From positions 22,196,001 through 22,260,000 of the forward strand of contig OX597830.1 of assembly GCA_951406725.2 (NCBI GenBank): DNA of 64,000 nucleotides. Direction: 5' to 3'. This stretch comes from Octopus vulgaris (Eukaryota). Position 1 is the first letter of the stretch; each line of letters opens with the position of its first letter. The notes beneath the pieces are model-generated. The model saw only the letters and a list, made by a program, of their open reading frames with translations. It did no database searches and was not told where the DNA came from. Positions 1 through 58,900 of this stretch are shown here, one piece after another. Made by a program: the position numbers and the translations under genes.

Positions 1-614
1 TATCCAGTTATATGCTGTTCATGTCTGAAGGACTAGAGGGAATTTTACCTTATTTGGAAACAGGTGAAGGTTGGTGACATTAAGGGGCATCAAGCAGTAG
101 AAAATCTACCTCAATGAATTCTGCCTAGCCCATGAAAAGTGGACATCAAAGCAATGATGATGATACACATGATGTACTAGATTTAATTGCTTGGTCCTTT
201 CAGATGCAAGTAGTAATTCTGTCTTCACATGGCTGACAAGTCCACCACTTTGGATAAAGAGGTTCGTGGCAGCACAACCATATACAACAAAACAATATTC
301 TATTTTCATGTCCTAAATGATAAACATTACATGAGCAATATCACTTTTAATATAAATAAATGAAAATGATGATTGTAGAGATGGAGAAGTAAGAGATAAC
401 AATGAGAATAATTTATAGCAAAATTCTTTTAATTCTATTATGAAGAAATTAAAAAATATAGTATAGGATGTCAAGATGATGGTGATGTTGAGTAAAATGT
501 AACAAAAATAAATGCACATCAGAAAATAAATGTAGTGCATATTCATCAGAAGTTTTGTATTTATGAAAATGTGCATGGAACTTAATGGAATAACTGAGGA
601 AAAATTATTGGCAG

Positions 615-1170
615 TACAAGAGTGGGCTGAAAAGTTCATAGGCTGACTATGAAAGAGTGATGCTAGGTGTGAAATCTTGCATACATCCACTTCAACTCTT
701 AGTAATAGCTGCATTGTTCCTTTCCAGGTAAAACTGACATCTGACTGTTCAAAGAAGACTTCAAAGTAACTTGTAGCAACTTCTCTTGGACAAAATTTGG
801 CATCGTGGTGTTACAATGCTCCAGCATACAAATCGTTAGTTTCAATGGCTACAATAGATGACTGTGGCTTTGAACTGGTTGAACACCCTCCCTATTCTCC
901 TCATATGGTCCCATCTGATTTTCATCTGTTCTCTAATATGAAAAACACTTGGTTAGGAACCAGTATTACAGTGATAATGACATATTTGTTGTTAATGATC
1001 TTTTGAACAGCAGGATGAAAGCTTCTTCATGAATGGGATCCAAGCACTGCAATACTAATAGAAGAAAGGTGTGGCCCACAAGAAGTGCTATGTCTAAAAA
1101 TAAACCTCATTTGATCACATCTCATGAGAGTATCTTGATCAGTCTATGAACGTTTTAGCCAACCCTCATA
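615..1170 (+). mobile_element. Internally deleted mariner (Tc1/mariner) element
   Basis: Imperfect terminal inverted repeats TACAAGAGTGGGCTGAAAAGTTCATAGGCTGA (615) and TCAGTCTATGAACGTTTTAGCCAACCCTCATA (ends 1170), with TA ends. Internal ORF 797-1006 carries the degenerate mariner motifs NAPAY and HPPYSPHMVPSDFHLF (cf. HDNAPAH...HPPYSPDLAPSDFHLF). Confidence 0.85.
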
Positions 1171-1527
1171 TTTCAAATAAAAAAAAATGAGCATTAAAAG
1201 ATGATTTAGGTGTGTGCATATATTCATAGGATTAAAAAATTTTTTCATGAAGGCATAGCACAACACCCAGTGGCTAGGGTAGTGGGCTTATTACTTAATA
1301 GAGTATCAGTCCATGTGAAAACATTGATTCTTGAATGACATGTGTGGATGTTAGACAGCTCTTCTCAGATGTTTATGCCTTTATAGAAATTATAAGAGTA
1401 AGAGAGATCAAAAGAGTACAGCACCTATGTAATACATACTGGCTGTTAAAAAAATTTTTTTTTTAATTTTGAAAAAAGGCTTTTATAATGCTAAGTAGGC
1501 TGTAAGGGGTCTGGCCAAGTAAATCTA

Positions 1528-2349
1528 TTACCAATAATACCTGGTATTGTTTTTTGGGCTGAAGGAACAAGGTTGGACGCAGTGGCGAGCATTGCTACCA
1601 AACTTCCTGTGATACCAGCATTTCCAGTCAACAGATTTGGACAAACTGGAGCTACAAGAAGATTCACTACTGCTTCTATACTTTACTCTGTCTATCTCCA
1701 ATGGTTGGATTTGTATTGGAAGTGCTTCCTTTTGCAAATCCTCTTTTTCAGGCTTTGAGTTATATGGTGAAAGACAGCTTGTGGCAGGCAACTTGGTTGC
1801 CACTTTAGTCACAGTTGACGCTGAGGAAGTGATTTCTTCAATGCGATCAGCTACTTCAGCGAGTTTCTCAACAGACTGTTGATTTTTAAAAACTACTAAT
1901 ATCATTTTAGTTTTGGCAGGAAGTTTTGCAAAAAAAAGCTCTTTAAAAAATTCTTTGCTCATGGTGTTGTCAGCTAGTAGGTACCGCATATGATGGAGAA
2001 GCTGGGAAGGTTTTTGGTCTTCAAGTTTCTCCCCAAAAAGAAGCTGGTTAAAGCGCTCCTCCTGAGAAATAGAGGTGCGTTTAATTAGCTCCTCCTTTAA
2101 TGTAGCGTAACTCACAGAATTCGGAGGTGCAACAAGAAGATCACGTACTTTCTGAATTACATTATATGGGAGTGAAGAAACAATATATGCAAAGCGAGTA
2201 GCCTCACATGTAATACCGTTTATCAGGAACAGTGCCTCTACCTGGACAAACCAGAGATCAGGGTAATTGGTGAAGAAAGGAGGAATGGTCAAGCTACTGA
2301 TAGAGCGAGTGTAAGGAATTTCAGCTGTAGGCATTGGAATTTCAAAATC
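1528..2349 (-). CDS. Exon 2 of a candidate domesticated Ty3/gypsy Gag (capsid-like) gene
   Basis: Uninterrupted 273-codon frame with gypsy Gag motifs PPFF..PDLWFVQVEALF, TRFAYIVSSLP, LKEELIKRT, LEDQKPSQLL..MR.LL and LAEVADRI, plus a C-terminal CWYHRKFG...HC..PC Cys/His knuckle. Preceded on the - strand by a pyrimidine tract and acceptor (ttcatttatttgtcctttcag|GAT). Ends TAA TAG; no pol follows. Confidence 0.8.
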   Translation of the reverse strand, partial: DFEIPMPTAEIPYTRSISSLTIPPFFTNYPDLWFVQVEALFLINGITCEATRFAYIVSSLPYNVIQKVRDLLVAPPNSVSYATLKEELIKRTSISQEERFNQLLFGEKLEDQKPSQLLHHMRYLLADNTMSKEFFKELFFAKLPAKTKMILVVFKNQQSVEKLAEVADRIEEITSSASTVTKVATKLPATSCLSPYNSKPEKEDLQKEALPIQIQPLEIDRVKYRSSSESSCSSSLSKSVDWKCWYHRKFGSNARHCVQPCSFSPKNNTRYYW

Positions 2350-2567
2350 CTGAAAGGACAAATAAATGAAGATGATGGTTGCAGAGGTAGACTAGAGATA
2401 AAAATGAGAGTAATTCATATATCAAAAGGTTTGTAATTCTTACAAAAAAATTGTTAATTTCAACAAATCGAAACAGTACAAGAAATTTGAAATTACATCA
2501 TGACATTAAAAAATTACAGAACAAAGTAAAGAAAACAAATGCATACATGAAATGATGTTATGAAGCT

Positions 2568-2956
2568 ATTACTCTTTTACTTGTTTTAGTCATTTGACTG
2601 TGGCCATGCTGGAGCACCACTTTTAATCGAGCAACTCGACCCCGGGACTTATTCTTTTGTAAGCCCAGTACTTATTCTATCAGTTTCTTTTGCCGAACCG
2701 CTAAGTAATGGGGACATAAACACACCAGCATCGGTTGTCAAGCAATGCTAGGGGGACAAACACAGACACACACGCATATATATATATATATATATACATA
2801 TATACAACGGGCTTCTTTCAGTTTCCGTCTACCAAATCCACTCACAAGGCTTTGGTCAGCCCGAGGACACTTGCCCAAGGTGCCACGCAGTGGGACTGAA
2901 CCCGGAACTATGTGGTTGGTAAGCAAGCTACTTATCACACAGCCACTCCTGCGCCT
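2568..2956 (-). mobile_element. tRNA-headed SINE / composite SINE
   Basis: On the - strand it begins GGCGCAGGAGTGGCTGTG...GGTTCAGTCCC (A/B-box-like) and has an internal TA/CA microsatellite. A near-identical copy lies at about 52545-52905. Confidence 0.7.
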
Positions 2957-3804
2957 ATATATAAATTTCATTTTAGAAGACTGTTGTAATCCAACATTGG
3001 ACTGTATAATGTCCACTCCAGTATAGCAGTATAGTTAGACAAGTAAAAACATGACTATTTTTGACTGACTTCTTGATGACTCGGTTTCTTACACAGTATT
3101 TGTAATGACAAGCACATACCACTCATCACATGGGAAGGGTGTTCCATTATTAGTGTCATCCTCGTAACAAAGACAAGGTAAAGTTAACAGAAAATAACTA
3201 TCACAAAATAACTATCACAAAAGGTTCATATTCAGCAGAATGTCCATATTTATAAAAATGGTTACGAGGAAACTAATATGAGGAATTCTAGACAATATTT
3301 CAAACCACAATTGAAATGAGTATAAAATGATTTGTATGATTTACAATGTGTGTCCATATGTCTCTATATGACAGTGCTGAATCTGAGTTATTTAGGCTCC
3401 TGTAGATAGTACAATGGACATTTGTTGACAAAATTGGATAATATATATCCTGATAGGGATGTATGCAAGAGAAGTCAAACATAGCACAGCATATGTGAAA
3501 CACTTATTGTCAGTGAAAAACAACAGCTTTTATAATGCTCAACAGACTGTGGTGATGTCTTTAAGAATGATTTATATATTAAGAAACTTGCTTTGCAACT
3601 ACATGGTTTTGGGCTCCAAGTGTCTTCTACTATAGCCCTAGGCTGATCAATGCCTTGTGAGTGAATTTGGTAGACAGAAACTGAAAGAAGCCTGTCCAGT
3701 GGCTTGGGGAGTGCAAGTCCAGGTTAAAACTTTTTATAAACAAGGTGGATTTTTCCAATTTTAATATCAAAAACACACACACACACACAAGGAAAAAGCA
3801 GGAC

Positions 3805-4820
3805 GAACAGCTCATTCTGCTTTTAAATGCCACCTTATCATTTGGGATGAATGCACCATGTCACATAGAGGGGCAATGGAAGCTCCTGGTAAAACCTTAC
3901 AGAACACCAGAGGCAACAATAAACCTATGGGAGGAGTTACATTAGTTTTATCAGGAGACTTCAGACAGATGTTACCAGTCATTCTGAGATGAACAAGATC
4001 TGATGAAATAAAAGCATGCATTGAGTCTTCACACCTATGGAATAAAGTACTGAAATTCTCCTTCAATACTAATGTGCAAAACAGCTTTCAACCTGGTTCC
4101 TCCAATTAGGAAATGTGAAAGTACCATTTGATGGGAATGGTGATATCAGTTTGCTATCATGGTGAATTCCCCAGCTGAATTGAAGAACAGAGTATTTGCA
4201 GACTTAAGTAACAATCAAAATTCACATAAATGGCTGTGTGCCGGCAATTTTTGCTCCAAAATATGAGACAGTAGCAAGGATTAACCATGAATTTATAAGA
4301 TTCCAACTGTCATTAAGAAGTACAAATCCATTGATTCGGTCCTTGATGAAAATCAAGCTGTCCATTACTCAACAGAGTTACTTAATTCACTTGAGCCACC
4401 TGGAACTCCTCCACATTAACTTTTTCTGAAGGTAGGAGTCCCAATATTGCTTCTAAGAAATTTAGATCCTCCTAAATTATGCAATGGGACAAGGTTAATT
4501 GTGAAGACATTATCACCTAATGCGACAGAAGCTACCATCATCAATGGATGTACCTCTGGGGAAGAGGCTTTCTTTCCAAGAATTCCAATCAAACCAACAG
4601 ACATGCCATTTGAGTTCAAATGAACACAATTCCCAGTGTGACTTTGCTTTGCAATGTCTATTAATAAAGCTTAAGGTCACTCTTTGAAATCTACTGGCTT
4701 GTTTTTCTCATGGTCACCTTAATGTTGGTTGCTCCAGGGTAGGTAGTTTGCAAGAATTATTTGCCAACACTCCAAACCAGAAAACAAAGAATGTTGTTTA
4801 CCCAAAAGCCCATACATAAT
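3805..4820 (+). mobile_element. Decayed Helitron PIF1-helicase remnant
   Basis: Fragmented translation gives [65 protein letters not shown] and FAMSINKA*GHSL, the Helitron RepHel helicase C-terminal motifs, interrupted by stops. Confidence 0.85.
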
Positions 4821-5643
4821 TTCCTTCAACATATGTGGTAGAATTTATCTCCTTTTATAAAAGTGGTAAATTTAGTATTTTCGTTTATTATTATTATTTT
4901 GCATTATGAATTCAGATTTAATTTCCCAATTAAAGAATAAATTGAATTTAGAATAACAAATTCCTATACAACATATTTTGCTATTTTTCTAGTATATCTA
5001 TAATAAATGCCAAAACGAATTTCTTTGACCCCACACCCTCTCTCGATATTCAATGACACTTCTCTGCTTGCTGGGGTGAGAGTAATAGTAGGCATAGAGA
5101 CGGTGAAGGCAGTAGTAGATTGACAGCTGAGATGGTAATGGGGTGATAGTAATAGTATGAGCTGTAGTTGTGATAGAGGCAGAGGCGATGGTGATGATGG
5201 TGGTAGCTGAGGCGGTCAAGCATGACGGTGAGAGTGAGGAATGTGAAAGACAGTGGTGATGGTGGTGTGGGAGGAAGGTGACGAAGTCAAAAGTACTGAT
5301 GCTGGTGGCGTCAGAAGTCTGAATGGTGTGTGGATGGCAGTTGTGGTGATGGTGATGGTTGAAAACAATCAACAGAAAGAGGTTAGACAGAAAAAAATTG
5401 TACTGAGCCCCGAATGGGAAGACAAAAAATGTTTATCATGAAGCTTTGCAATAAGTTCCAAGTCAATATATATCACCGTTTTGATGAAAATTGTTCATTG
5501 CTTGAAAAATATTGGTCAAGTTTAATAAAATTTGATATGTAGTCAATGCATGAAATGTCATTATTGGGCTCAAGGTCCAATGAAGAGTCCTCCACAGGGG
5601 CTAGCTTAAAAGCCACCCAATAGGGTCACTTTTAAGCTGTTTT

Positions 5644-5681
<38 letters not shown>

Positions 5682-5849
5682 TAGATAGATATAAATATTC
5701 ATCATCATCATCACTACCATTATTTAGCATCCAGTTTCTATGTTGGCATGGGTTACACTGTTTGACTGGAACTGGTAAACTGGAGAGCTGTACCTGGTTC
5801 CAGTCTGATGTATATATATATACACACATATTTGGCAATGGTATGAAAG

Positions 5850-7265
5850 ATTGTGGTCAGTGGTACCATTAGGAATTCTTTTAATGATAGTACTGCACCC
5901 ATGCTGTAGCACTGCCTTAATTTATTTTCTACTATTTTGACTGGAAGATGGTCTATGATTGAGTTTTCTAGCAGGTGAACTCCCAAGTGCATCCGTGAAT
6001 GGTTGACTAGTACGGTATTGTCATTTATTGAGTTTATGCAATGATTTTTTTTTTTATGTTTCATTAGAAGTCCCTTTCATGTAGCTGATTAATATAGATA
6101 GGTAGTTGAACAGTTGAGAACCTCTAAGTATGAGACTAGTACAATATAGTACTTTTGCTCATGATTTTGAGGGTAGTGTATGTGGAAGCTGACAGTATAT
6201 AAGAGTTTATGCATTAAAATTCCCTCCAATGCCAAAGTTTGGAGCATGCCCCTCCACAATTTTCCATAAGTATGTAATAGTAGAGATGTAGCAATTAGAG
6301 ACATTCTGAGTAAATAAGGCTTTTAACCGAAGGTATTTTACTGGTGAACGTTCCTTGTTACCCTTCAATTTCTTCTGAGACCAGAGGAGTTAGGAGATTA
6401 AAACTGTAAGCACTAATCTAATCTGCTCAGAATTAGGGTTTTCCATACTGTTAATCTAACTACTGGTTGTCATGAAAGTTCATAGGAGCCGACCTATGAG
6501 TCGGCTGCATTTAAAGGTTAGTTTGATAATATGGCTGATGAAAAATGCATCATTTGACATGATTATTCCTAAGTCCTGTATGTCATTAGTGGTCTGAATC
6601 ATTATGCTACCTTATGTCAAATATTGCGATTTGGGTGTATTCCCTCAGCAATGGAGAAGATGTAATTTTGATGAAGTAAATTTCAAGCCATTCATATTTT
6701 TGCTTTCAGCATAATTCATTGCCTGATGTGTATGACTTATTACAGGTAACTGAGCAGAGAGAAAACCATTTGCAGCAACAGGTTGGCCTCCTACCATATA
6801 GGGAGTTAAAGAGCCATTCTCCAACTTTTCCTGTGATACCAAGATTTAACTTATGACAGATGATTCCATGATCCATCTTCTCAAACGACTTAACAAAATC
6901 AAAGTATTAACAGTCAGTGCTCTTTCCCCTCAAGAGATTATTGAGGGTAGTGTCATGATGCTGTAATAGTTGTGACAGGCAACTTCGTTCAGTCCAAAAC
7001 CCATGCCGTGTGTCATTTAAGCTGTTTTCTTCCAAGTGGGTTATTATTTTTTTTTCTTCAGACATGGTGTTTGATAATTTTAGATGTGAGGGAAACAGGT
7101 CTGTAAGACAAGGAAAATTAAAGACCCCTGTCAAAAGAACATTGGCCCATGTCCTGGCCTCAGCTAGGGTTAGACTTATGAGCGACAAAGCATCTCTGAA
7201 GTAATCTCTGTGGTTAATTGTGTCAGGAGGACGGTATGCAATGCTTATATTTTTTCCTTTCATAT
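5850..7265 (-). mobile_element. Highly decayed non-LTR retrotransposon (CR1/jockey-like) fragments
   Basis: ORF 6907-7293 contains YRPPD and LLTGVFNFP (AP endonuclease-like) and HGF...RSCLSQLL (RT-like). Boundaries are approximate. Confidence 0.55.
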
Positions 7266-7360
7266 AGATTAGTCTGAAATTCTTCATCATCATTTAACAT
7301 CCGTTTTCCTTCTTGTTGGAACTTTGCATATTAGGTAATTTCAGTGAGGAAAAAAAAATT

Positions 7361-8345
7361 AGCGGAGTTTCTGATCATGACGTCCACATGTTGGATTTTT
7401 TCCGTTTTGACGGCATTTTTCCAGTTCTTTTCCTTTACGACGGGATTTGAAATGCTGGGAGAACATCTTTGACTGTTATTTCTAGTACATACACGACTAC
7501 CTTACCCGTTTCCTTTGTCATGTATTGCTGTTTTTGTGGAGGACCCCTTCCTCCATAGTTTTTCAACGAGGAAGGTGGGGTCGTGGAATGTGCTAGAAAC
7601 AACAGCCAAATTTCTTTTAAAACAACACCTTTTGTCTGAAAATATTTTCAATTTTTTTTTAACGAAAAGGCTTCTCCCAAGCTTGTTAAGTGCCAAAATC
7701 AGTCTAGAGTGAGGCGGTGAAAAGAAATCACAAATTTTCAAAAACTTTTTTGGCGGCTCGAAGCACGCGCTAAAACCCCTCATAACTTTTTATATTTTTG
7801 CGTATTTTCACAAAATCTTTTCGATTCTGTCTTCTGCACAAAATGGAATTAATATGATCGTGCAATAAATTTTTTTTTTTCCAATATTTTAACCCCCTCC
7901 AACATTTTTCAGTAATGACCTCTTCCAGTGTTTCTGCTTTTCGATCAAGAACAAGTTGCAGGTAACCCTTCTTTACAGGGTTGTCATATATTCCAAGTAT
8001 CCAAAACTTCATCACAACTCTTCCAACGTCAACTTAGACTATATGTTTCAGGCCATCTAATTTCTTTTTTGCCTTTTGGGTACATATTTCTCTGCAATAC
8101 TCGATAACAAACACATTTTTTTATTCTGCTTGAAGTTTTCCTTAAAAAAAAAAGTGAAGAAAACAATCTACTTGCAGTGTATTAAATAATTCCACTCTCG
8201 ATGAAAACATATCCGAACTCTGCCCCCCCCCCTTTTTTTTTTCGTAAGAAAAAGATGTACCTCCATCATTTTCCAATTGGAAAAAAATCCCCGTCAAAAC
8301 GGAGAAAATCCAACTTATGTCTGCGTCCTGATCCCAAACTCGGCC
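7361..8345 (-). mobile_element. Non-autonomous DNA transposon, Merlin/IS1595-like remnant
   Basis: Imperfect terminal inverted repeats around TTGGATTTTTTCCGTTTTGACGG (7391) and CCGTCAAAACGGAGAAAATCCAA (about 8291). The internal - strand fragment FWILGIYD...GYLQLVLDRKAETLEEVI resembles the Merlin WVFG...V.DR.A.TL..I motif. Confidence 0.55.
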
Positions 8346-8772
8346 AAAATCTTTAGGATGCCATTTTGTGTGTGCGTGTGTGTGCGCGCGCTATCAACTA
8401 ATCTGACCTCCGGACATGTCGCAAAGAACATTTTACTTAGAAAACGGAGGCGGTGGGGTGGCTATAAATTTACCAAATAACAACAGCGAGAAAAAGAAAG
8501 AAAACCCTAAAATTTCCGTTTTATTTGTGACAACTATACCGAAAGTTCGCCCAATACTCATTATCCGGAGTTTCCAAACGAATTTCTTTGAAAATTATAA
8601 ATTTGAAATCAGTCATGCTGAAAGGGCCAAGATTTGACTGCTATATTTAACTGGTCGAGTGACCATGTTAGAGTTTCCATCGTATAAGCTTGTCAGAGCA
8701 AAATCTCTCTCTTCGCTATCAGCTTGTCTATGCCACCTTTTAACACACAAACATAAAAATGACCATAAATAC

Positions 8773-8913
8773 CTGCTTGCTGATAGAAGTTATTACCCCT
8801 CGTGTCTCACTTTCCCTCTGTTCTTTCTCATCATCAACTTCCTTCTGTTCTTTCACATCATCAATTTCCTTCTGTTCTTTCTCATCGCCAACTTCCTTCA
8901 GTAAAGTAGCCAT
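8773..8913 (-). CDS. Putative first coding exon of the Gag-derived gene (47 aa, acidic 9-aa repeats)
   Basis: ataATGG start in strong Kozak context. Translates MATLLKEVGDEKEQKEIDDVKEQKEVDDEKEQRESETRGVITSISKQ and ends at CAG|GTATTT. This phase-0 donor matches the phase-0 acceptor at 2349. The join is inferred, not demonstrated. Confidence 0.65.
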
Positions 8914-9115
8914 TATATATAAATATATATGTATATATGCACAAATATATATGTGTGATGCTTCTGTGTGTTTGTTTCAGAAATCCTAATCGTGTAAACG
9001 TTGCGATTTAGCGTGGACACTGTTACCCGCCTTGAGTTTCTTGTTTACCGTTTTCTTGCATTACCAGGTGTCGCTTGCGCTCGTATGTATGGCAGAACAC
9101 GTTTTGTGCAAGTTA

Positions 9116-9510
9116 TCTTTATATATAAAAGTGAAGTTGTGTGAGTGTCTGTCTCCTACGATTTAGATTCCTAACTACTCCCACATTTTGCGGTGCAGTT
9201 TAACCAAAACCGGGTATCTTGTAGTCGTGATTCATATTGAGCCCTTCTGGGTATTAGCGCGCGTCTACGATGAGTCTACGATTAAAAAAAAAAATTACCA
9301 TCAATTTTTCCCATTTTTAATGCATTTTTGGCATATATAAGGGAAGTAACTCTCTAAAAATTTATTAAATCTCAGAACGTAAAAATCTACAGTAACACCT
9401 CCCCCTTTGTGGTTAGCCATATTGAGATGGCTATTATACTTTACATCTCTAAAAATGCTTATATAGTTATTTCCCTTACAAGCCCGAGCAACGCCGGGCG
9501 ATACTGCTAG
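9116..9510 (+). mobile_element. Non-autonomous Helitron
   Basis: Starts TC (a|TCTTTATATATAAAA) and ends with the GC hairpin GCCCGAGCAACGCCGGGC followed by CTAG|t. Inserted between A and T with no TSD. Confidence 0.8.
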
Positions 9511-10439
9511 TAGTATCATATATCTGAACAAAAAAAATGACAGCAAATCTACGTGATAGTGGTGTCAGACGTGGCATGCAGGCCATCATATAACTTTTTA
9601 AACATGTATTTTATGTGATGTCTCAATGGCGCACCTTTCCTGCTCCTTTTTTTATGGTCTTGGTGCCAGGAAACTATCTTTGAACCCAATAATGTAGAAT
9701 TTAAATGTCTAATAATTTTATTCAAGTTACATAATAAATTGTTTAATCTTTTTCTGTTTTAAGAACGCTAAATTTGACAAAAGTGTCAGTGTGACGAATC
9801 CAACAAGGGTTGACAGATTTAACAGTTGAACTGAAATTTTTCAATTTATGAACAATATCCTCAGTTGTGCAGGACGACAAACGGATAACACCAGATGAAT
9901 TTTTAGTTAGCATACCATTAATACCTACTGCAATCTTAATGAATTTATGGACGGGCAAAGAATTGAGAATATTACACGTATCTTGAGTTAACGTGTCAAT
10001 TGTGGAACACTGCCTTGTAGTTATTAAAATTATTGCACCACGAGTCGCCCATAAAAACACAGGTCTATGAAAATTCGTCTGCTATTTTCGGAGAATTCTG
10101 TGAAACCGAAGTGATTCTCTTAAAAAGGCAGAAACTACAGGATCAGTTGTAAGTGCTGGTTGCCAAATATCTTGTCAGGATAGTAAGTGGAGCGCATATG
10201 GGTTTACAAAGGTATAAAAATCGTGAAATATAAACAAAGGAATCACTGCAGATGTGTATCCATTCCCCGACTTTGTTGCCTCGTAACTTACAGAAAAATG
10301 GATATTTTTTAATGAAATTTTCAATAAATACCGCTTAGATGCTATAGATTCCGAATATATAGAGATTTGTTGAAAGAATTTTTGCGAGGGGTTGGGGAAA
10401 GGAGTTTCGGAAAATTAACATGAATTTAGTTTATCAGGT

Positions 10440-10905
10440 TATTCAGGAAGGCGTAGTCCCTAATGTCTTGCGTAGCAGCATCATAGTCAGTTGCTACAAG
10501 GGCAAAGGAGAGCCTTAGATAAAAGTAATTATAGCGACATCAAATTGCTGGACCAGATCATGAAAGTTGCAGAGGGAGTTATGACCCAATTAAGTAGGAA
10601 CAGAATTAGACTAGATGAAATGTGATTTCAGCTTTGTCCCGGGGAGAAGCAGCACAAAGGCTATTTTCATATTTAGGCAACTACAAGAGAAGTATTTAGC
10701 TAAGGACAAGCCATTGTTCTTGGCATTTATTGATCTAGAGAAAGTCTTCAATTGAGTACCTCTCTGTGATATGATGGCCATTGAGGGAGCTAGGAATCAA
10801 CAAACAGATTCTGAAAGCAGTACACGCCATGTACAGGGGTGCTGTTGGAAGGTAAGAGCCATGAGTACAATGATGTATTTAATGTACAGATAGGAGTCCA
10901 CCATC
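10440..10905 (+). mobile_element. Old decayed RTE LINE RT fragment
   Basis: Clear nucleotide similarity to about 57410-57870 of the intact RTE (e.g. ATAGTCAGTTGCTACAAGGGCAAAGG, GAGAAGTATTTAGCTAAGGACAAGCC), with frameshifts. Confidence 0.8.
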
Positions 10906-11199
10906 TCTGAGTAGCTACTACTGTTTCAGCATGAGACAAAGCATCTCCGATGTTTATTCCACCTGGAAAGTGTGGAAGCCCAGTTGAGTTGTAGACATTG
11001 AAGTCAGTAAGGACCTTGATTTCAAAGAGAGGGGAAGTGGAGATGCAGGAAGAAAGATGGTGAAAATTATGTTGGTCGGAAAAAGTAGGAGAACAGTAGG
11101 GAAAGATGTATTTAGAGAGGTGTGTCGGTGGGAGCTGCAAATCATTCTTACTGATCCATTAATCAAATTAGCCATTGCTGCCAACTAGTCAGTAAAAAT

Positions 11200-14170
11200 C
11201 TTCTTGGATCCTTTTGGATGTTGTCACAGATTTGAAAACTAAATGAAAATTTACAAATTTGGTATACTGGTGTAATTTGTCACACAGAATCAGAATTGGC
11301 GATTCATTTATTCCAAGATTAAAAAAAAAAATTAGACCTTGCAGAGGTCCGAAGTTGATCATTTTTAGCCAATCAGGAAACAGGAATTGGCAGCCTCGCA
11401 TTTTCTGCGTCATGTGATAATTGTCTGGTGGATCCGTCCTTAGGCGATGAAATCAAAAGTTAAGAAGTTTTAATGAATAAAGTCATGTGAAAAAGGCATG
11501 TAAACAACTAAAGAAGGATAATTCCTCGATGCTTTTTGCGAATAATCAAGAAACAAACTATAGATTTCACATTTTTTTCAATTTTCTTTTAGTTCTTTTC
11601 AAATTTGGCATAACGATTTCGTTTTGTATGCTATGACAGTGGAATTAATCAAAAATTGATTAATAAAAAGTTAATACCTTTTAAAAGTTTGCAAATTTGA
11701 GGTAATTTTAACCAATCGACAGTCATCACTATACTCATGCACATAAATGTCACTTTGGTATTTGTTTCCATAGTAACAACCAAACCTAGTCTCATCCAGT
11801 CTGCCCTGTTTTTGCGTGCAAATTTGACACTTGCACCGCCACAAGTTTTCACGAGCGATATATGGCAGTCGGTTGTTCGAGGAACAATAATTTCCTAATT
11901 GGTTAATGTTTACTATAACTCCCGGTCACCAAAACAAACAATGAAAAAGTCCAATAGGTATAAAAAATGTGTAGAAAACGAATATGAAAATAAAAATTTG
12001 CCCAAAACGGATGGGAGGCAGGGAAGATGATTTGGGGAAAATTCACACGATCCGATTTTTTCCCTCATAACTTTCAGGAAAATGGATATCTTTTAGTGAA
12101 AGTTTATACAAATACCTTTCAAACGGCATAGATTATAATTATAAAGAAACTACAGAAATGTTTTCAAATTTTTGTCCGAATCATAATGTCCGTATTTTTC
12201 CGTATATTTAGAAAAAAAAAAAAATCTTCAAAAAAAGTTTTACAAAAATTGTTGGAAATTTTTTTCCGAATCATAATCTCTGTATTTTTCCGCATATTTT
12301 GAAAAAAAAAAAAAAAATCCGGAAAAAGTAGAAAATGAAGGAAAAGTTGGGTGGTAATTTGAAAATGCCGATTTTTGTGAATTTTTTTTGCAGATTCGTA
12401 TTTTCCGTAGCCGAAAAGTGGGTGGGTAGGGGGATCGAAAAAAATTTTTTTTAAGGATGGTTGGATGGGGGACGGGCGGAAGTCTTGCTAAATGGAAATT
12501 TTTTTTTATTAATGCTTATATTCCACCAACGAAGAACGCATGATCCATTGGTATTAAGTGGGGAGGAGGAAAAAAATCATAAAATTTTCCAAACGGTTTT
12601 TTCATAGAAAGATGTTTCCCATCATTTTGAAGGCCCCCATCAAAGCGGAGAAATTCCAACTTGTATGGTCTTCTTGGTCCGAAACTCCTCTGCCCACCTT
12701 TTTGGAAAGAGTTTCCCCCACAAATTTCTTTATACTCGTAATCTATGCTGTTTGAAAGGTATTTGTATAAGCTTTCATTAAAAGATAACCATTTTTCCTT
12801 AAAGTTATGAGGGGAAAAACCCGGATCGTGTGAATATTCGCGAATCTTCTCCCCACCCCTTCGGAAAACATTTTCCCCACAAATTTCTTTATAATCGTAA
12901 TCTATACCAGTTCAAAGGTATTTCTAGAAAATTTCATTAATGTCCATTTTCAGGAAAGCTATGAGGGAAAAAAATCGGACCATGTGAATTTTCCGAAAGT
13001 CCTCTTCCCACAACCCTCATACGTTTGCGCAAATTTTTGTTTTTATATTCGTTTTCTACAGGTTTTCTTTCTTTTTTTTTTTTTTTACACCTATTACACT
13101 TTTTTGTTTTGTTTTGGTGACCGGGAGTTAAAGTGAACATTAACCCTGAGTTAAAGTAAATATTAACCCAATAATTTTCTGTGACTTGTGGTCGTCCTCT
13201 CACATTCCACAAATTGCTGGGTACAATTTTCGACATAGGATGATGAACTTCAGTGTTGAGTTCATTAACTTGAAAATATAACCCATACATAAGCTGAAAG
13301 CACATAAATCTCTCTAAAACGACACGGTGGAACCCAACGTTCCATGGTCGACTCGTGTTTTTGCGAGTATGTGAAGCGGGAGAAAATCGTAATTTCTTTG
13401 ATAAACTCCAAGTAACATTCGTTTTTGAATTTTCGAATTATTTACATGAACTAGTAATGCTTCGATTATGATCTCAACCTTGTTATTTTCTTCCAGCTGA
13501 TTGTTCGGCAATTTCCGTAAAGAATTTTTATTTATTTACTGTCGAAGCCGGTATTTATTTTGAAGTCGGTGAGGGAAGTGAAAATAGAAGCACACGTGAG
13601 ACACACTCGTGTATATGAAAGTTAACGGGTGTAACGTGTGACAGCATGTTCAGCTTTAGGTATATGTATTCACTCATACATGTATGTACTCCCATTATCT
13701 TTCATATACACGTACATACATAAATACATTGTACGGGTGTTTTAATATTCAACTCATGACATGAAAACCAATCGGTGTGCGTCTGACCGCGCGCGTTTTA
13801 CTCTTCACTTCCTTCACCGACTTTTACACAAAAAAATTTCGTCGAGGTTTCCCCCTTTTTCAGTTGTTTACATGTTCGACCATTCGTTTTACATAACGTC
13901 TTTCAATAAAACTTATTAAAACTTCGTACAACTCTCTTCGTGTTTTACTTTCACAAATAATTATCTTATCACGCAGAAAACGCGCGACTTCACATTCCTG
14001 TTTTCTGATTGGCTAAAAATGATCAAACTTTGTGACACTTCTCTGATATTTTTCTACAATAAATAATTCAATTCAGATTCTACGTAACAAATTACAGCGA
14101 AATATCAAATTTGAACATTTCCACTTCGTTTTAAAATGTCCAAATCTGACAACCACCAAAATACGATTTC
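11200..14170. mobile_element. Long-TIR DNA element (possibly Mutator-like) containing a nested foldback element
   Basis: Diverged inverted arms of about 340 bp at 11200-11540 and 13825-14170 (e.g. GATCATTTTTAGCCAATCAGGAAACAGGAAT vs ATTCCTGTTTTCTGATTGGCTAAAAATGATC). The family assignment is weak. Confidence 0.6.
11901..13145. mobile_element. Foldback/MITE element with about 250-bp inverted arms
   Basis: GGTTAATGTTTACTATAACTCCCGGTCACCAAAACAAA at 11901 is mirrored by TTTGTTTTGGTGACCGGGAGTTAAAGTGAACATTAACC ending 13145. An internal subunit of about 160 bp is tandemly repeated at 12710-13020 and also seen at about 10260-10420. Confidence 0.75.
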
Positions 14171-14285
14171 CGCCTTGTGACAAAATTGTCGGGAATGTAG
14201 AGTTCCGTAAAAGAGTACAAAGCTCGAGGAAGAAGGAAGGGGGGGGGTCTCTTAGGAATATGACGGATATTAAGGTTTGACGCTT

Positions 14286-14299
14286 GTGCCATCTGGTGG
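14286..14299 (-). promoter_or_regulatory. CTCF-like motif in the SAFB promoter
   Basis: The reverse complement CCACCAGATGGCAC matches the CTCF core CCASYAGRKGGCRS. It lies about 160 bp upstream of the ATG and is retained in the duplicate promoter. Confidence 0.55.
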
Positions 14300-14454
14300 T
14301 AACACTAAAAGAAGTAGCCTCAACGTCACCACGGATAGAAGGGAGTTAACTGTTGTATAGCAAAATATTAAAACAGAATTGCGTCCTAACCAAGTTTCTG
14401 CTTCAACGTGAAACCAGTGGATTAAACAAATCTCGACATTCACTTACATATATC

Positions 14455-45177
<30,723 letters not shown>

Positions 45178-52972: not shown

Positions 52973-55909
52973 TGTTGTGACGAGAGTATGACACCCTCTG
53001 ACAAGAATAGATGGGACCACTACATATAAATAGTAGCAGTGTGACATAGTAGGCAGTTTGGTCTTTGAAGTCCAGGTTTAGTTTACAGTTCAAGTTAGTG
53101 TGTTAAAAATATTGATTGTTTGTTCATTATGTGTTTTTTTTTTTGCTGCTGCTGTTTCTATTTTGTATTGTTATAAGACTGTACTACAATATTGGAGGTG
53201 TAAAGATGTAACATCTGGCAGCGAGGATTTTTCAAAGTTCACTTAGGTTACTTGACAATATGTGTGTCATACAAATTGTTAAATTATGGAGAACCTGTTA
53301 GCTGCAGTAATACAGCATCAAGAGAAGCAACAGGAACAACTACTGGAGTTGCAGAAGCAAATATTACAACAACAACAGTTAACTGAGTTACAGTCAAAGA
53401 AGTTTGAAAATTTGTTAAGTTCATTTACACCAGACAGTTTGGCAAACTCGATTTCTGAATTCATTTATAATCTGGAGGAGGGTATTACGTTTCCTGTATA
53501 CTATAGAAGGTATGAGGCAATTTTTAAAGATTGCAAGTCATGGTTGAATGAGGAGAAAGTGAGACTATTACTATGCAAGACAGCTCTGGCTGAGCATGAA
53601 CACTACTGTAACTTTATATTGCCTTATTTTTGTGCAAGGATTCTCTCAAAAATTGAGCAAGAGAACCAAGACCATTGCAGAAGAATGTCAAACTATGGTA
53701 AACCTGAAGCATGACGCGAAAAATATTCAAGAGAAAGATTTTGCAAAAGTACAGATGTGTCAACCCGGAAAGCACAATCAAAAAAGAGTGCCAGGCCCCA
53801 GTCCATATTATGGATGTGGAGGCCTACACTTTAGAACAGAGTGTCTGTTTAAAAACGAAAAATCCTATAGTTGTCAGAAACTTGGTTACAAGAGCTCGCA
53901 CTACAGGACAAGATTACGAGGGTCGAATGCAAAAAGTTCTAAGGTGTTTTCAGCAGAAAGTGAATGTGGCACAAAAACAAGAAAATTCGTACACATAAAA
54001 AGAAATGGCTCCTGTGCAGGTGGCATGTGAAAAACACCATTTGAGAGTGGCCGTTGCCAGTACTGCCTGACTGGCTCTCGTGCCAGTGGCACGTAAAAGC
54101 ACCCACTACACTCTCGGAGTGGTTGGCGTTAGGAAGGGCATCCAGCTGTAGAAACTCTGCCAGATCAGATTGAAGTCTGGTGCAGCCATCTAGTTTGCCA
54201 GTCCTCAGTCAAATCGTCCAACCCATGCTAGCATGGAAAGCAGACCTTAAACAATGATGATGATGGCAGTTGGATATGAGTAGTGATATTTCAAACATAA
54301 ATGTAGACACACAGAAAAATCGGGAAACTAAGGTTATATAAAACAGCGAAAATTGTATGTGGTGATAAATGACATTTCATGGGCGAAATGTGTACAGATG
54401 TCACATTTTAAGGAGAAACATGTGAAGTAAAAATATTCATTGTGGAGAAAACAATCAATCTGTTTGGTACACTTTGGTTGGAGTTATTTGACTCATGGCA
54501 CCTCCCCATAAGTCTCTACAGCAAAAACATAAATGGTTGTCTGTCAAAAATAAATCATCTGAGGAATTGAAGAGAGAATTGAAAAAGATGTTTTCTCAAG
54601 TACTATCAGAGGACTTAGGTCTAAGTAAAAAGACTGAAGCCTTCTTTCAAGTAAGTGAAAACGCCGTGCCTGTATTTAGGTCTTACAGAAAAGTACCATT
54701 CACTGCAATTGAAATCGTAAATGAAGAGTTGGACAGACTGGAAAAAAGTGGAATCATCAAAAAGGTGGATTACTCTAAGTAGGCAGCACCCACAGTGTGC
54801 ATTAAAAAGAAAAATAATAAGATTAAGCTGTGTGCTGATTTCTCTACAGGGCTGAATGTCTGCTTAAAAACGTGCCACCATCCACTCCAGAGGACATTTT
54901 CGCAAAATGAAATGGTGGAAAAATTTTCTGTTACAAATGCTCAAAGTGTCTGACAATAAATGCATGTAAAGTATTGTACAGGTATACCTGATTACCTTTT
55001 CAGTTAAAGGTTGCACTGGCAATATTTGAGCAGACCACAGATGCTATGTTATCTGATTATGAATTTGCAATTTTTTATTTGGACAATATATTGATTAAGA
55101 GTAATTCGCGTGAACAGCTTGTGGTGCATATAAAAGCTGTGTTCAAGAAAAAGAGTAGGAGTTCACTTTGAGTGAAGAAAAACGCGAATTCTTTTTGCCG
55201 CAAATTAGATACTCAGGGCAAATAATTGATAAAAATGCTGGACGGCCTAACCCATTGAGGGCAGACACAAGAATGAATATGCCTACTTTGACAAATATAC
55301 CAACATTACAAGTGTTTCTTAGGCTGGCAAACTACTACCAAAACTACATTTCTAACATGCACAAATTAAGAGCTCCATTAAATGACTTATTAAAAAAGGA
55401 AGTAAAGTGGAATTGGTCGGTTAAATGGCAAAACGCGTTTAAAGAAATAAAAAAAAATTTCTAATTGCAGATTAATCTCTAGTGCATTTCGATCCTGAAA
55501 TGGACACTGTTGTAGCATATGATGCTTCGTAGTACAGAATAGGAGCAGTTTTGCTACACAAATATAAAGATGGAGGTACACAACCAGTGATTCATGTTTC
55601 GCGCTCACTGATAGTGACAGAAAAAATACAGTCAGATAGAAAATGAAGCCTTATCCATTATATTATCTTTATGATAAAAAAAATTTCACAGGTTTCTACA
55701 TGTTAGTTTCTGATAATGGAACACAATTCTAAGGGTATGAATTCAAGAACTTCTGTAAAATGCATGCGATAAAGCATATTTTCATCCCACCCTACCACCC
55801 AAGGTCAAATGAGCAGATAGAAAGATTCGTAGACACGTTCAAAGGAGTGTTAAGAAAAGCTAAGAGCAAATTAAGTAACGATGAAGCACTAACAAAATTC
55901 TTAAGGGTA
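52973..55909 (+). mobile_element. Decayed Ty3/gypsy (Mag-like) LTR retrotransposon, 3'-truncated
   Basis: Putative 5' LTR TGT...AACA (52973-53213) and PBS-like TGGCAGCGAGG at 53216. gag starts at 53286 (SLANSISEFIY...YRRYE, Cys/His knuckles). RT: VPFTAIEIVNEELDRLEKSGIIKKVDYS, LCADFSTGL. RNase H region follows; integrase: SDNGTQF, PPYHPRSNEQIERFVDTFK. Many stops and frameshifts. Confidence 0.88.
54005..54265 (+). mobile_element. RTE 3'-end fragment inserted in the gypsy gag/protease region
   Basis: Same 3' UTR motifs, CCATGCTAGCATGG and (GAT)n tail. Confidence 0.85.
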
Positions 55910-58900
55910 TGGCACTCTGAAAGGTAGGTCTGGTGAGATAGTCGAGATGCTTGAACGGAGATGTGTGGATATATGTTGCATGCAAGAAATAAGGTGGAGA
56001 GGAGGATCAGCTAGGTTCCTCACAGGCAAGGAACGCAGGTACAAGATTTTCTGGGCAGGGAATACTGACGGGGTTGGTGGCGTGGGTATACTTATCGCTG
56101 AGAAATGGGTAGATAAAGTAATTGAGGTAATCAGAGTAAGTGACAGAATACTTAAGATTAGATTAGTGCTTCATCATAGTTTAGCAACCATTATATCAGC
56201 CTATGCTCCTCAGTCGGGGCTACCCGATGGACAGAAAGACCGATTCTATGACACTCTACTGCAGACTACCTCATTGACGAACGACAGAGACCTTATCTTT
56301 GTGGCTGGTGACTTCAATGGTCACGTTGGACGACATGCTGGGGGCTTCCATGGCGTACATGGAGGTTACGGCTATGGCTCCCGCAACGAGGAGGGAACCA
56401 GGCTGCTGGAGTTCTGCGATGCAAATAATCTTATGATTTGCAACACTAACTTCAGGAAACCTACCAGCCACCTAGTCACTTACCAATCGGGCCAACATAC
56501 CAGCCAAATTGACTACATCCTTACAAGGCAAAGGGAGAGATGGCTGCTTATAAATGCCAAAACCTTCCCAGGTGAAGAATGTACCCCACAACATAGACTG
56601 GTAGTTAGTGACTTTAGGATCAGGACTAGGAGGACAACCAGAAGACGACAAATATGGAGAAGAAGGATCTGGAAGCTTAAAGATCCTGCAAATGGACAGA
56701 GATTTAGGGACATATTACTTGAAGCCTCTGACGAAGTAGAAGGGGATAGAGCATCACAGGGGGTAGAAGACAGCTGGACGTTTCTAAGGGACAACCTGCT
56801 GAGAGCCACTGACCAGATCTGTGGCTGGTGCAAAGTCCCCTCTCGACCTAGAATAACGTGGTGGTGGAACAATATTGTAGACAGGGCTATTAGAGAAAAG
56901 AGACAGGCTTGGAAGGTCTGGAAAAATGGGGGTAGCAGGGAATTGTATCAGACTGCCAAAAGAGAAGCTAGGAGACAGGTTTATTTAGCCAGAGGGGAAG
57001 CAGATAAGAAAAAATTTGCCAATGTTCTGCGCCGTGAGGACCAAAGACTGGAGGTGTTTCGTGTTGCAAGACAGTGTGTGAGAGAGAATCGTGATGTGGT
57101 AGGAGAGAAGTGTGTTCGCATGGAAGATGGTTCACTTGCGCTAAATGAGGATGCAAAGAGAGAGGTTTGGAGATGCCACTATGAAAGGTTGCTGAATGAA
57201 GAAAATGAATGGGATAAAGAGAGTCTGCCGAATGTTGACCCAACAGAGGGACCAGCTATCCGAGTTGATAGTTCTGTGGTAGCTAAGGCAATTAGAAGCA
57301 TGAAGACAGGGAAAGCCCCAGGCCCATCAGGAATCACTGCAGAGATGCTCAAAATGTCTGGTAGTGTCGGCTATAGCCTAGTCACCCATATAGTTAATCA
57401 GGTGATACACAAAGGGGTCATACCCAATGACTGGTGTAGCAGTATAATAGTCAACTGCTACAAAGGTAAAGGTGATGCCCTAGATACAAACAACTACAGA
57501 GGTATCAAGCTGTTGGACCAGGTGATGAAGGTTACGGAGAGGGTCATAGCCCAACTAATTAGAGAGAGAGTTAGTTTAGATGAGATGCAGTTTGGGTTTG
57601 TGCCAGGGAAAAGTACTACTGATGCTATATTCCTGGTAAGGCAGCTGCAGGAGAAATACCTAGCCAAAGATAAGCCCCTGTACCTGGCTTTTGTTGACAT
57701 GGAGAAAGCCTTCGACAGGGTCCCCCGATCCCTTATCTGGTGGGCAATGAGAAAACTAGGGATAGATGAATGGTTAGTGAGAGCTGTGCGGGCCATGTAT
57801 AGGGACGCCGCTAGTAGGGTGAGGGTTGGAAATGAGTACAGTGAAGAATTCCGGGTAGAGGTAGGGGTCCACCAAGGCTCAGTACTCAGCCCCCTCCTAT
57901 TTATCATAGTCCTCCAGGCAATAACGGAGGAATTCAAGACAGGATGCCCTTGGGAGCTCCTCTATGCTGATGACCTTGCTCTAATTGCTGAGTCGCTATC
58001 AGAACTGGAGGAGAAGTTTCAGGTGTGGAAACAAGGATTAGAATCGAAGGGCCTCAGAGTCAATCTAGCTAAAACCAAAGTCGTAATCAGTAGGAAGGTA
58101 GACAAATCACAAACACCTTCAGGTAGATGGCCCTGCTCGATCTGTAGAAAAGGTGTAGGTAGAAACTCTATAAGATGCACCAAGTGTAAGCTATGGACAC
58201 ATAAGAGATGCAGCAATGTCAAAGGAAGGCTAACTAGGAAGATGGTTTTTGTATGTGGCAGATGCTCAGGAACAATAAACACTGAAAATGCTCTGAGACC
58301 AACTTCTGTCACTTTCCAGGGAGAAAAACTAGAAATAGTTGATAGTTTCCGTTACCTAGGTGACCAAGTCAGCAGCGGGGGCGGGTGTGCTGAAAGTGTA
58401 ACTGCTAGAGTAAGAATAGCTTGGGCAAAGTTCAGAGAGCTCTTACCTCTGCTGGTGACAAAAGGCCTCTCGCACAGAGTGAAAGGCAGACTGTATGATG
58501 CGTGTGTACGAACAGCCATGCTACATGGCAGTGAAACATGGGCCGTGACTGCTGAGGATATGCGTAAGCTCGCTAGAAATGAAGCCAGTATGCTCCGATG
58601 GATGTGTAATGCCAGTACTCACACTCGGCAGAGTGTAAGTACCTTGAGAGAAAAGCTGGACCTAAGAAGCATCAGTTGTGGTGTGCAAGAGAGACGTTTG
58701 CGCTGGTATGGTCATGTGGCGAGAATGGATGAAGATAGTTGTGTGAAAAAGTGCCACACCCTAGCGGTTGAGGGAACCTGTGGAAGAGGCAGACCCAGGA
58801 AAACCTGGGACGAGGTGGTGAAGCACGACCTTCGAACTTTAGGTCTCACCGAGGAAATGACTAGAGACCGAGACCTCTGGAAGTGTGCTGTGCGCGAGAA

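What the first reader, a model, noticed from the sequence alone, without database searches (positions are those of the whole stretch)
1528..8913. Candidate domesticated, spliced gypsy Gag (capsid) gene with a host-type acidic leader exon
Seen in sequence: the Gag ORF (1528-2349, - strand) is fully open while neighbouring transposons are decayed. It has no recognisable LTR, PBS or pol, ends in a double stop, and begins at a canonical splice acceptor (tttatttgtcctttcag|GAT). About 6.4 kb upstream, an exon too short for the ORF track (8913-8773) has a Kozak ATG, 47 open codons and a CAG|GTATTT donor in the same phase 0. Joined, they give a protein of about 320 aa: acidic leader, capsid-like domain, Ser-rich linker and CWYH...C...C knuckle. 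The intron holds old Helitron, LINE, SINE and Merlin-like debris, implying the structure is old. Established knowledge: Ty3/gypsy gag genes have been independently domesticated (Arc, dArc, PEG10, PNMA), and some form RNA-carrying capsids. Inference: this is an independent, possibly undescribed cephalopod gag domestication that keeps its nucleic-acid-binding knuckle.
Basis: partly seen in the sequence, partly recalled or inferred. Interest (0 to 1): 0.9.

Follow-up and report, generated by a model that had tools for sequence, protein, structure and literature searches.

The report
Octopus gene built from retrotransposon capsid
An octopus carries one intact gene made from a retrotransposon's capsid protein, with a predicted two-exon structure and an identical predicted protein in a sister species, so it is likely a tamed host gene, as the brain gene Arc is, and would be a new place to ask what such capsids do.

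Summary
Observation confirmed; interpretation largely supported. The genome is Octopus vulgaris. The open 273-codon frame (1528-2349, minus) is a CsRn1-type Ty3/gypsy gag with a two-lobe capsid fold and a CHCC knuckle. It is single-copy and has no pol, PBS or recognisable LTR; 49 of 53 long relatives keep pol. About 7-15 replacements would be expected if neutral at an assumed 1-2% divergence; dS was not measured. The gene fills its own CpG-depleted block like the flanking SAFB paralogues. Corrections: the leader is mostly a 27-bp repeat, the family's coiled coil and Arg/Ser patch are lost, not all intron repeats are old, and Merlin was not confirmed. An O. vulgaris model splices gag onto SAFB, probably an annotation merge. 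Untested: junction reads, tissue, orthologues outside the two sister species, capsid assembly. Verdict: likely domesticated gag (about 0.8), most likely a self-assembling capsid protein; retrotransposon restriction is the main rival.

The parts
8773..8913 (-). Coding leader exon, 47 codons, acidic (net charge -6); 8812-8899 is 3.3 copies of a 27-bp repeat; phase-0 GT donor
   Evidence: identical to residues 1-47 of XP_036366107.1
2350..8772 (-). Predicted 6,423-nt intron
   Evidence: GT...AG ends in the sequence; same join in two annotated proteins; no read-level test
1528..2349 (-). gag exon, 273 codons plus stop; second stop at 1525-1527; native gag ATG at 2332-2334
   Evidence: Pfam PF23055 DUF7041 E 1.4e-24
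1819..2301 (-). Two-lobe retroviral-type capsid (CA) domain, residues about 17-177 of the exon
   Evidence: AlphaFold pLDDT mostly 88-98 over residues 21-170; all 37 chains with Z >= 5 are retro-capsids
1621..1818 (-). Linker, predicted disordered; the family's coiled coil and Arg/Ser-rich basic patch are eroded
   Evidence: pLDDT about 50
1567..1620 (-). CHCC zinc knuckle CX2HX9CX3C, the CsRn1-clade signature
   Evidence: definition in PMC2582038
1535..1543 (-). GT donor 10 nt before the stop, used by the O. vulgaris model CAI9735052.1 to join gag to SAFB exon 1 at G000:C17:22191561
   Evidence: that acceptor has only 7 of 20 pyrimidines
2345..2570 (-). Old low-copy dispersed repeat that supplies the acceptor tract; a second copy lies at 345-545 on the same strand (possibly degenerate LTRs, not shown)
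345..545 (-). Second copy of the old repeat, 76% identical over the best 85 nt
1462..1467 (-). Nearest poly(A)-like hexamer (ATTAAA) after the stop; use not tested
2570..2960 (-). Young SINE copy in the intron (SINE label from its dispersed copies, by eye)
3765..4620 (+). Broken Helitron PIF1 helicase fragments in the intron
6772..7108 (-). Broken LINE reverse-transcriptase fragment in the intron
   Evidence: 49% identity, E 4e-23; intron coordinates converted to window
1..7000 (.). CpG-depleted block (o/e 0.1-0.3, one 1-kb bin 0.57), continuing about 3 kb left of the window; gene-body-like
7000..15500 (.). CpG-rich region (o/e mostly 0.7-1.4) holding the leader exon and the first exon of the divergent SAFB paralogue
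14455..14589 (+). First coding exon (SAP domain) of the head-to-head SAFB paralogue

Best explanation
This is a single-copy, pol-less CsRn1-type gypsy gag in the octopus SAFB cluster that has likely been domesticated as a host gene, is predicted to be spliced to a 320-aa protein, and would most likely work by self-assembling through its capsid domain. Shown: open frame, single copy, capsid fold in the model, CHCC knuckle, no pol or PBS, identical predicted protein in O. sinensis. Inferred: an LTR element inserted long ago (at least about 6% neutral divergence by a rough CpG clock) and lost its LTRs and pol. The gag came under a CpG-rich host promoter near 9 kb and gained a repeat-built first exon that splices to an acceptor lent by an old repeat. 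It is transcribed broadly, germ line included, since heritable CpG loss needs germ-line methylation. Inferred and untested: the CA domains oligomerise into capsid-like particles as Arc, dArc, PEG10 and PNMA2 do, with the knuckle giving weaker nucleic-acid binding than in the parent because the basic patch is gone. Odds: domestication about 0.8; this mechanism as a whole 0.45.
For: Single copy: next best 43% aa among 141 scored of 789 candidates; DNA 1180-2349 matches only itself. No pol next to it in 264 kb and no protease-profile hit, control E 9e-86; 49 of 53 relatives of >= 200 codons have pol and only 1 of 53 is open with neither pol nor PBS (83 of the 140 relatives were fetched). Same exon join in RefSeq XP_036366107.1 and GenBank CAI9735052.1. 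0 of 320 residues differ between the species; 753 replacement sites predict 3.8, 7.5 or 15.1 changes at 0.5, 1 or 2% neutral divergence (P 0.023, 0.0005, <0.0001). About 1.8% follows from 2.5 My (PMC10700109) and JC 0.09 per 25 My (PMC13282606). SAFB paralogues differ at 3/1010, 17/1025 and 14/825. Own CpG-depleted block with a CpG-rich 5' end, like each SAFB paralogue; octopus methylation marks expressed gene bodies, not transposons (PMC9476566). Silent-site CpG o/e 0.24, second lowest of 84 and lowest of the 54 long frames, while Arg-codon CpG is 0.97. Keeps 54 of 62 conserved columns, the median of 137 homologues, on a long terminal branch (1.19 against median 0.64, quick tree). Fold: PEG10 CTD Z 10.4, rmsd 2.9, 84 aligned; dArc1 Z 9.1, rmsd 3.9, 151 aligned; Ty3 NTD Z 7.5, rmsd 2.5, 73 aligned. 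[quoted passage not shown]
Against: Both protein records are predictions whose supporting evidence I could not see. The O. vulgaris model may not be independent, because its pipeline aligned UniProt octopus proteomes (that these held the O. sinensis model is my inference). dS is unmeasured, and the adjacent SAFB also differs little (3/1010), so at 0.2% local divergence zero changes has P 0.22. No orthologue from O. bimaculoides, Argonauta or other cephalopods turned up although their SAFBs are in the collection; that search also missed the O. sinensis protein, hidden in a SAFB cluster. The Arg-CpG pattern is not unique: broken copies L104, L108 and L148 show similar ratios, and some families are CpG-poor. 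The CpG clock alone gives only P about 0.05 for staying open at 5%. The coiled coil (score 3 of 6; 133 of 134 homologues score 4-6) and Arg patch (2 against median 7; 5 of 134 as low) are lost, which may impair assembly or RNA loading. Foldseek gave no hit at E <= 0.001.
Confidence: 0.45

Rival explanations
1. Domesticated restriction factor: the host makes this capsid protein to co-assemble with, or bind, particles of its still-active CsRn1-type retrotransposons and spoil them, as Fv1 and Ty1 p22/Drt2 do and as RTL8 does to PEG10.
For: A young same-clade family is present: median 99.4% gag identity over 171 pairs of 19 copies, LTR pairs 99.2-99.8% in 4 of 4 full loci. CA is kept while the coiled coil and basic patch are lost and an acidic leader is added. 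CpG loss implies germ-line transcription (inference). It lies in a cluster of SAFB genes, whose mammalian homologues repress L1 (PMC11485995). Drt2 is among the fold matches (Z 8.1, rmsd 2.6, 80 aligned).
Against: Only 40-43% identical to the active family's Gag; the knuckle is kept; no amino-acid change between species, whereas Fv1 shows positive selection; the active family is evidently still spreading; the SAFB link may be mere position.
Confidence: 0.25
2. Not domesticated: an old gag fossil between SAFB genes, transcribed as a passenger or joined only by gene predictors, and still open by luck or by low local divergence.
For: Known only from two species 2.5 My apart; adjacent SAFB nearly unchanged too; linker degenerated; leader is mostly tandem repeat with a modest donor score of 2.2 against 4.8-5.7 for SAFB first introns; open transposon frames do occur in the window.
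Against: Silent CpGs are at the level of the flanks, so the copy is old, yet all conserved Cys/His and a median share of conserved columns remain with no stop or frameshift (P 0.002 at 10% divergence). It is 320 of 320 identical across species, the repeat leader included. No other coding gene was found in the CpG-depleted block (76 fragments from it scanned, only transposon domains passed Pfam cut-offs).
Confidence: 0.18
3. The gag serves mainly as an upstream domain of a read-through Gag-SAFB fusion (CA + knuckle + SAP + RRM), or as a non-assembling interaction module like SCAN.
For: GenBank model CAI9735052.1 (1327 aa) is such a fusion; the donor 10 nt before the stop resembles the leader's donor and the frame is kept; same strand, about 6 kb apart.
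Against: The acceptor lies inside SAFB coding exon 1 and has 7 of 20 pyrimidines; SAFB has its own CpG-rich 5' end and ATG; O. sinensis RefSeq keeps the two genes apart; evidence-merging pipelines often fuse neighbours (established knowledge).
Confidence: 0.12

Closest known systems
Gag of CsRn1-clade Ty3/gypsy LTR retrotransposons (CsRn1, PwRn1, Boudicca, AgCR; Pfam DUF7041)
   Same: CX2HX9CX3C knuckle, helical two-lobe CA, 30-43% identity, DUF7041; groups with this genome's own families (SH-aLRT 94, quick tree).
   Different: No LTR pair, tRNA-Trp PBS or pol; single copy; extra coding exon; coiled coil and Arg/Ser patch lost; CpG-depleted.
Arc (tetrapods) and dArc1/2 (flies)
   Same: Low-copy gag-derived host gene; same CA fold (dArc1 Z 9.1, rmsd 3.9, 151 aligned; Arc C-lobe Z 8.7, rmsd 2.6, 80 aligned).
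   Different: Not orthologous: 11-18% identity in the structural alignments, no sequence match, other gypsy lineage; neuronal expression, assembly and RNA transfer untested here.
PEG10/RTL, PNMA/MOAP1, SCAN, Crtg1 (co-opted gag genes listed in PMC8321522)
   Same: Gag-only host gene; CA fold (PEG10 Z 10.4, PNMA2 Z 7.3, MOAP1 Z 7.0); no intron inside the capsid region, as in those genes.
   Different: Those come from sushi-, Gmr1-, Mdg3-like and other gypsy lineages in vertebrates and insects and span host families; this one is CsRn1-type, in a mollusc, shown only in two sister species, with an in-frame coding first exon.
Gag-derived restriction factors Fv1, Ty1 p22/Drt2, RTL8
   Same: Host-encoded CA beside a still-active relative; fold match to Drt2.
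   Different: No restriction test; full CA and knuckle rather than a fragment; no sign of fast change.

Membership tests
CsRn1-clade Ty3/gypsy Gag (protein) | CHCC signature CX2HX9CX3C near the C-terminus | tested here: met
   against PMC2582038 passages; 135 of 138 aligned rows carry it
CsRn1-clade Ty3/gypsy Gag (protein) | Helical retroviral-type capsid domain and sequence similarity over the whole Gag | tested here: met
CsRn1-clade LTR retrotransposon (element) | Flanking LTR pair and tRNA-Trp primer site | tested here: not met
   no PBS; no match to the active LTR; only a 76% old direct repeat of unclear nature
CsRn1-clade LTR retrotransposon (element) | pol (PR, RT, RH, IN) after gag | tested here: not met
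CsRn1-clade LTR retrotransposon (element) | Placement by RT phylogeny | not testable with these tools
   the locus has no RT; clade assigned from Gag only
Co-opted gag gene (criteria of PMC8321522) | Synteny across at least two host families, or gene tree matching host tree | tested here: inconclusive
   found in O. vulgaris and O. sinensis only, in the latter as a protein whose longest contig has the same length as that of its SAFB genes; no other cephalopod genome searchable; protein searches blank but shown to miss hidden members
Co-opted gag gene (criteria of PMC8321522) | Under natural selection | tested here: inconclusive
   favoured: 0 of 320 replacements against 4-15 expected at assumed 0.5-2% divergence, silent-site CpG loss with open frame; but dS not measured
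Co-opted gag gene (general usage) | Single or low copy, detached from LTR and pol | tested here: met
Co-opted gag gene (general usage) | Expressed from a host promoter as a spliced mRNA | not tested
   no read-level data obtained; indirect support only (annotated join; CpG profile)
Arc/dArc (orthology) | Descent from the Arc or dArc gene | tested here: not met
   no sequence match to solved Arc chains even with a 138-row profile; CHCC/DUF7041 lineage
Arc/PEG10/PNMA2 (works like) | Assembles capsids and carries RNA between cells | not testable with these tools
   needs purified protein and EM
Gag-derived restriction factor | An active target element of the same type in the host | tested here: met
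   LTR pairs 99.2-99.8% identical in 4 of 4 loci
Gag-derived restriction factor | Blocks replication of the target | not testable with these tools
   bench test

The most novel reading that the evidence does not exclude
A third independent Arc-like invention, in the largest-brained invertebrates: a CsRn1-derived Gag forms RNA-carrying capsids in octopus, and a minor read-through splice onto the neighbouring SAFB adds SAP and RRM domains to some subunits, a host-built counterpart of Gag-Pol that chooses the cargo.
Probability: 0.07. Interest if true: 0.92.

Novelty: new variant of a known kind. Interest (0 to 1): 0.62.

Why it matters
Gag domestication is known in vertebrates and insects; the survey of 2,011 proteomes lists seven animal cases and never mentions molluscs (PMC8321522). 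My searches found no report for cephalopods, for this locus or for DUF7041 (most subscription papers are not in the library). If real, it is an independent origin from a gypsy clade with a different zinc knuckle, in a lineage with a large brain and no Arc report found. It makes two questions testable with one 37-kDa protein: whether capsid-based signalling arose again in cephalopods, and whether octopus uses a Gag against its active retrotransposons, which it does not silence by methylation. It also puts a structure on DUF7041: the capsid N-terminal lobe.

Tried and rejected
Expression: one search gave 'no RNA holder listed' (no evidence either way); 7 of 24 listed runs held half or more of the words of 1000-2350, under four organism labels, none laid. 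No read-level data on the junction were obtained (one search returned none), so splicing rests on annotation and sequence signals. Capsid dimer prediction: no verdict. Orthologue searches: near lengths 4 hits of 1388 candidates, none close; shorter 0 of 238; representatives 8210 hits, best 41% over the full length and 55% over 125 aa, a starfish protein; Atlas, DUF7041 clusters only. They missed the O. sinensis protein because it is clustered under SAFB, so blanks are weak. PDB sequence search: nothing meaningful. Idea that the leader is a decayed SAFB exon 1: protein P 0.04 and DNA P 0.05 against one paralogue, P 0.2-0.7 otherwise, flanks not alignable (one search used a wrong frame and only its flank tests are used): not supported. 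Idea that the Helitron upstream of both the leader and SAFB exon 1 marks a shared duplication: the copies are 83% alike while the leader's copy is 92% like a third: rejected. Idea that gag hits 160-200 kb away are paralogues: each lies beside pol: ordinary elements. Idea that the direct repeat 2345-2570/345-545 is an LTR pair: it is an old dispersed family with no gag or pol in the 10 other loci; left open. Low GC at four-fold sites as a sign of domestication: rejected, pol-bearing L078, L085, L086 are as low. Arg-CpG retention: suggestive only. Earlier scan findings: none. Supplements of PMC9476566: 12 of 22 files searched for SAFB, 0 hits; the unseen methylation tables could bear on the gene-body claim. 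PMC13282606 passages hold no mention of gag or domestication. The tree is the quick one; the careful search did not finish.


Full report
OBSERVATION. The frame 2349-1531 (minus) is open for 273 codons and ends TAA TAG. It starts at an AG with 17 of 20 pyrimidines before it. The exon 8913-8773 has 47 open codons and a phase-0 GT donor; it is the only one of 3 upstream candidates with both Kozak features (recalled donor weights; score 2.2 against 4.8-5.7 for SAFB first introns). 88 of its 141 nt are a 27-bp tandem repeat. The gag also keeps an ATG at codon 6, which lines up with a nearly invariant Met column of the family. Intron debris: PIF1 helicase fragments, a LINE RT fragment and a young SINE; Merlin was not found among 79 fragments.

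WHAT IT IS. Pfam gives DUF7041. The motif CX2HX9CX3C is the CHCC signature of CsRn1-clade gypsy elements (PMC2582038, passages). An AlphaFold model from 138 rows (mean pLDDT 81) has two helical lobes over about residues 17-177. All 37 chains with Z >= 5 among 48,161 are capsids of retroviruses, retrotransposons or their domesticated genes: PEG10 CTD Z 10.4, rmsd 2.9, 84 aligned; dArc1 Z 9.1, rmsd 3.9, 151 aligned; Ty3 NTD Z 7.5, rmsd 2.5, 73 aligned. Foldseek ranks dArc1 and PNMA2 first but without E <= 0.001. The host is Octopus vulgaris: the neighbouring SAFB exon matches its annotated protein at 100% on a contig of the same length.

NOT A TRANSPOSON COPY. The genome holds many relatives (141 scored of 789 candidates), the best at 43%; the gene's DNA matches only itself. 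In 264 kb around it pol occurs only with other elements, and a protease profile from 49 natural frames finds nothing in 11.8 kb around the gene while the control scores E 9e-86. Of 83 relatives fetched (of 140 listed), 53 align over 200 codons or more: 49 have pol, 32 a primer site, and 1 is open with neither. The closest family is young, with LTR pairs 99.2-99.8% identical in 4 of 4 loci. The candidate sits on a long branch (1.19, median 0.64; quick tree of 69 rows) yet keeps 54 of 62 conserved columns, the median of 137 homologues.

GENOMIC SETTING. The gene lies between two head-to-head SAFB paralogues in a cluster of at least six. CpG o/e is 0.1-0.3 over every SAFB body and about 1 at their 5' ends and in the stretch beyond the cluster. 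The gag has its own depleted block from about 3 kb left of the window to 7000, and the leader lies in the CpG-rich region. In octopus, methylation marks expressed gene bodies and spares transposons (PMC9476566, passages), so this reads as a transcription unit starting near the leader (inference). No other coding domain was found in the block. The acceptor tract comes from an old dispersed repeat with a second copy 1 kb past the stop; whether these are ruined LTRs is open.

THE JOIN IS ON RECORD. Direct homologue searches found no close protein. A control search with SAFB and its cluster members exposed two records: O. sinensis XP_036366107.1, 'uncharacterized protein LOC115220740', 320 aa, equal to leader plus gag at every residue, and O. 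vulgaris CAI9735052.1, 1327 aa, with the same first 316 residues spliced into SAFB exon 1. Both are predictions; I could not see their evidence. The O. vulgaris pipeline used Iso-Seq, RNA-seq and UniProt octopus proteomes (PMC10700109, passages), so it may have copied the O. sinensis model (inference). The fusion acceptor is poor (7 of 20 pyrimidines) and SAFB has its own CpG-rich start, so I take the fusion as a probable merge. No read-level test of either junction was obtained.

SELECTION. (a) 0 of 320 residues differ between species split about 2.5 My ago. On 753 replacement sites (318 codons counted), neutrality predicts 1.5, 3.8, 7.5 or 15.1 changes at 0.2, 0.5, 1 or 2% divergence, P(0) 0.22, 0.023, 0.0005, <0.0001. 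The published rate (JC 0.09 for 25 My, PMC13282606, passages) suggests about 1.8%, and heterozygosity alone is 1.22%. SAFB paralogues differ at 3/1010, 17/1025 and 14/825; the first is the adjacent gene and shows that local divergence may be low. dS is unmeasured. (b) Silent-position CpG o/e is 0.24, like the flanks, second lowest of 84; Arg-codon CpG is 0.97 (binomial P 0.010). Against: broken copies L104, L108 and L148 give similar ratios, and some families are CpG-poor. (c) A SINE calibration (13 copies in depleted flanks, 8 CpG sites) puts such loss at 6% divergence or more; an unselected frame stays open with P 0.05 at 5% and 0.002 at 10% (indel rate assumed). Together these favour domestication at about 0.8.

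HOW IT LIKELY WORKS. CA lobes and knuckle are as conserved as in active elements (41%, 35% and 60% mean identity to homologues against 39%, 39% and 55% among them), but the coiled coil (3 of 6; 133 of 134 homologues 4-6) and the Arg patch (2 against median 7) are lost, and the leader makes the protein slightly acidic. [quoted passage not shown] Rivals: dominant-negative restriction of the active CsRn1-type family (0.25); an unselected fossil or predictor artefact (0.18); a SAFB fusion or non-assembling module (0.12). Assembly, RNA binding, tissue and function are all untested.

COMPARISON AND NOVELTY. It is a CsRn1-type Gag but not an element, and it works like, but is not, Arc. It does not yet meet the cross-family synteny criterion of PMC8321522 (passages and section 6), which lists seven animal cases and never mentions molluscs. 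Searches for a prior report were blank or off-topic: octopus + gag + domesticated + capsid, cephalopod + gag + domestication + Arc, domesticated gag + mollusc (Drosophila Gagr papers seen in the listing only), octopus + Arc, DUF7041, the accessions, SAFB + gag. The library lacks most subscription papers. The SAFB-L1 link is from PMC11485995 (passages). The roles of p22 and RTL8 are from abstracts in the listing and that of Drt2 from a PDB title.

VERDICT. A real, annotated but uncharacterised two-exon gag gene, likely domesticated; a new variant of a known kind. Interest 0.62: surprising for cephalopod and transposon specialists and easy to test, but so far shown only in two sister species and without expression or function data.

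Noticed in passing
G000:C17 22113892 (-), 22152319 (-), 22191459 (-), window 14455 (+), window 49436 (+), C17 about 22285058 (+): At least six SAFB paralogues in about 200 kb, three on each strand around the gag. The two rightmost have damaged first exons (no ATG seen; a stop in one, a frameshift in the other). The copy at 22152319 has a first exon 100% identical in protein to the one at 14455.
   Followed up: partly
window 55905-58919 (+): Open 1004-codon LINE-like frame (endonuclease plus RT by eye) inside a SAFB paralogue, CpG o/e 0.42.
   Followed up: no
L002-L020, L159-L162: Young CsRn1-type gypsy family: median 99.4% gag identity, LTRs of about 585 nt 99.2-99.8% identical, tRNA-Trp-type primer site.
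   Followed up: partly
L083 (G000:C1:20315972-20316712) and L087 (G000:C24:18460269-18460991): Two other gag frames without pol nearby; L083 is open with no PBS, but neither shows strong CpG loss. Possible further candidates or truncated copies.
   Followed up: partly
window 9114-9514 and G000:C17:22191893-22192266: The same non-autonomous Helitron-like element (label by eye) sits 200-300 nt upstream of both the leader ATG and the next SAFB ATG, same orientation, 83% alike; apparently independent insertions.
   Followed up: partly
window 53283-55464 (+): Decayed second gypsy-like element of another type (DUF7083, RT fragments).
   Followed up: no
window 33946-35519 (-): Broken DDE_Tnp_1_7 transposase in a SAFB intron.
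   Followed up: no
G000:C17 about 22345000-22398000: Dense nest of gypsy, LINE and other retroelement frames, including three CsRn1-type copies with pol.
   Followed up: no
protein cluster 6: The gag protein is hidden under a SAFB representative because a fused gene model links them, so homologue searches miss it: a pitfall for novelty claims from this collection.
   Followed up: yes
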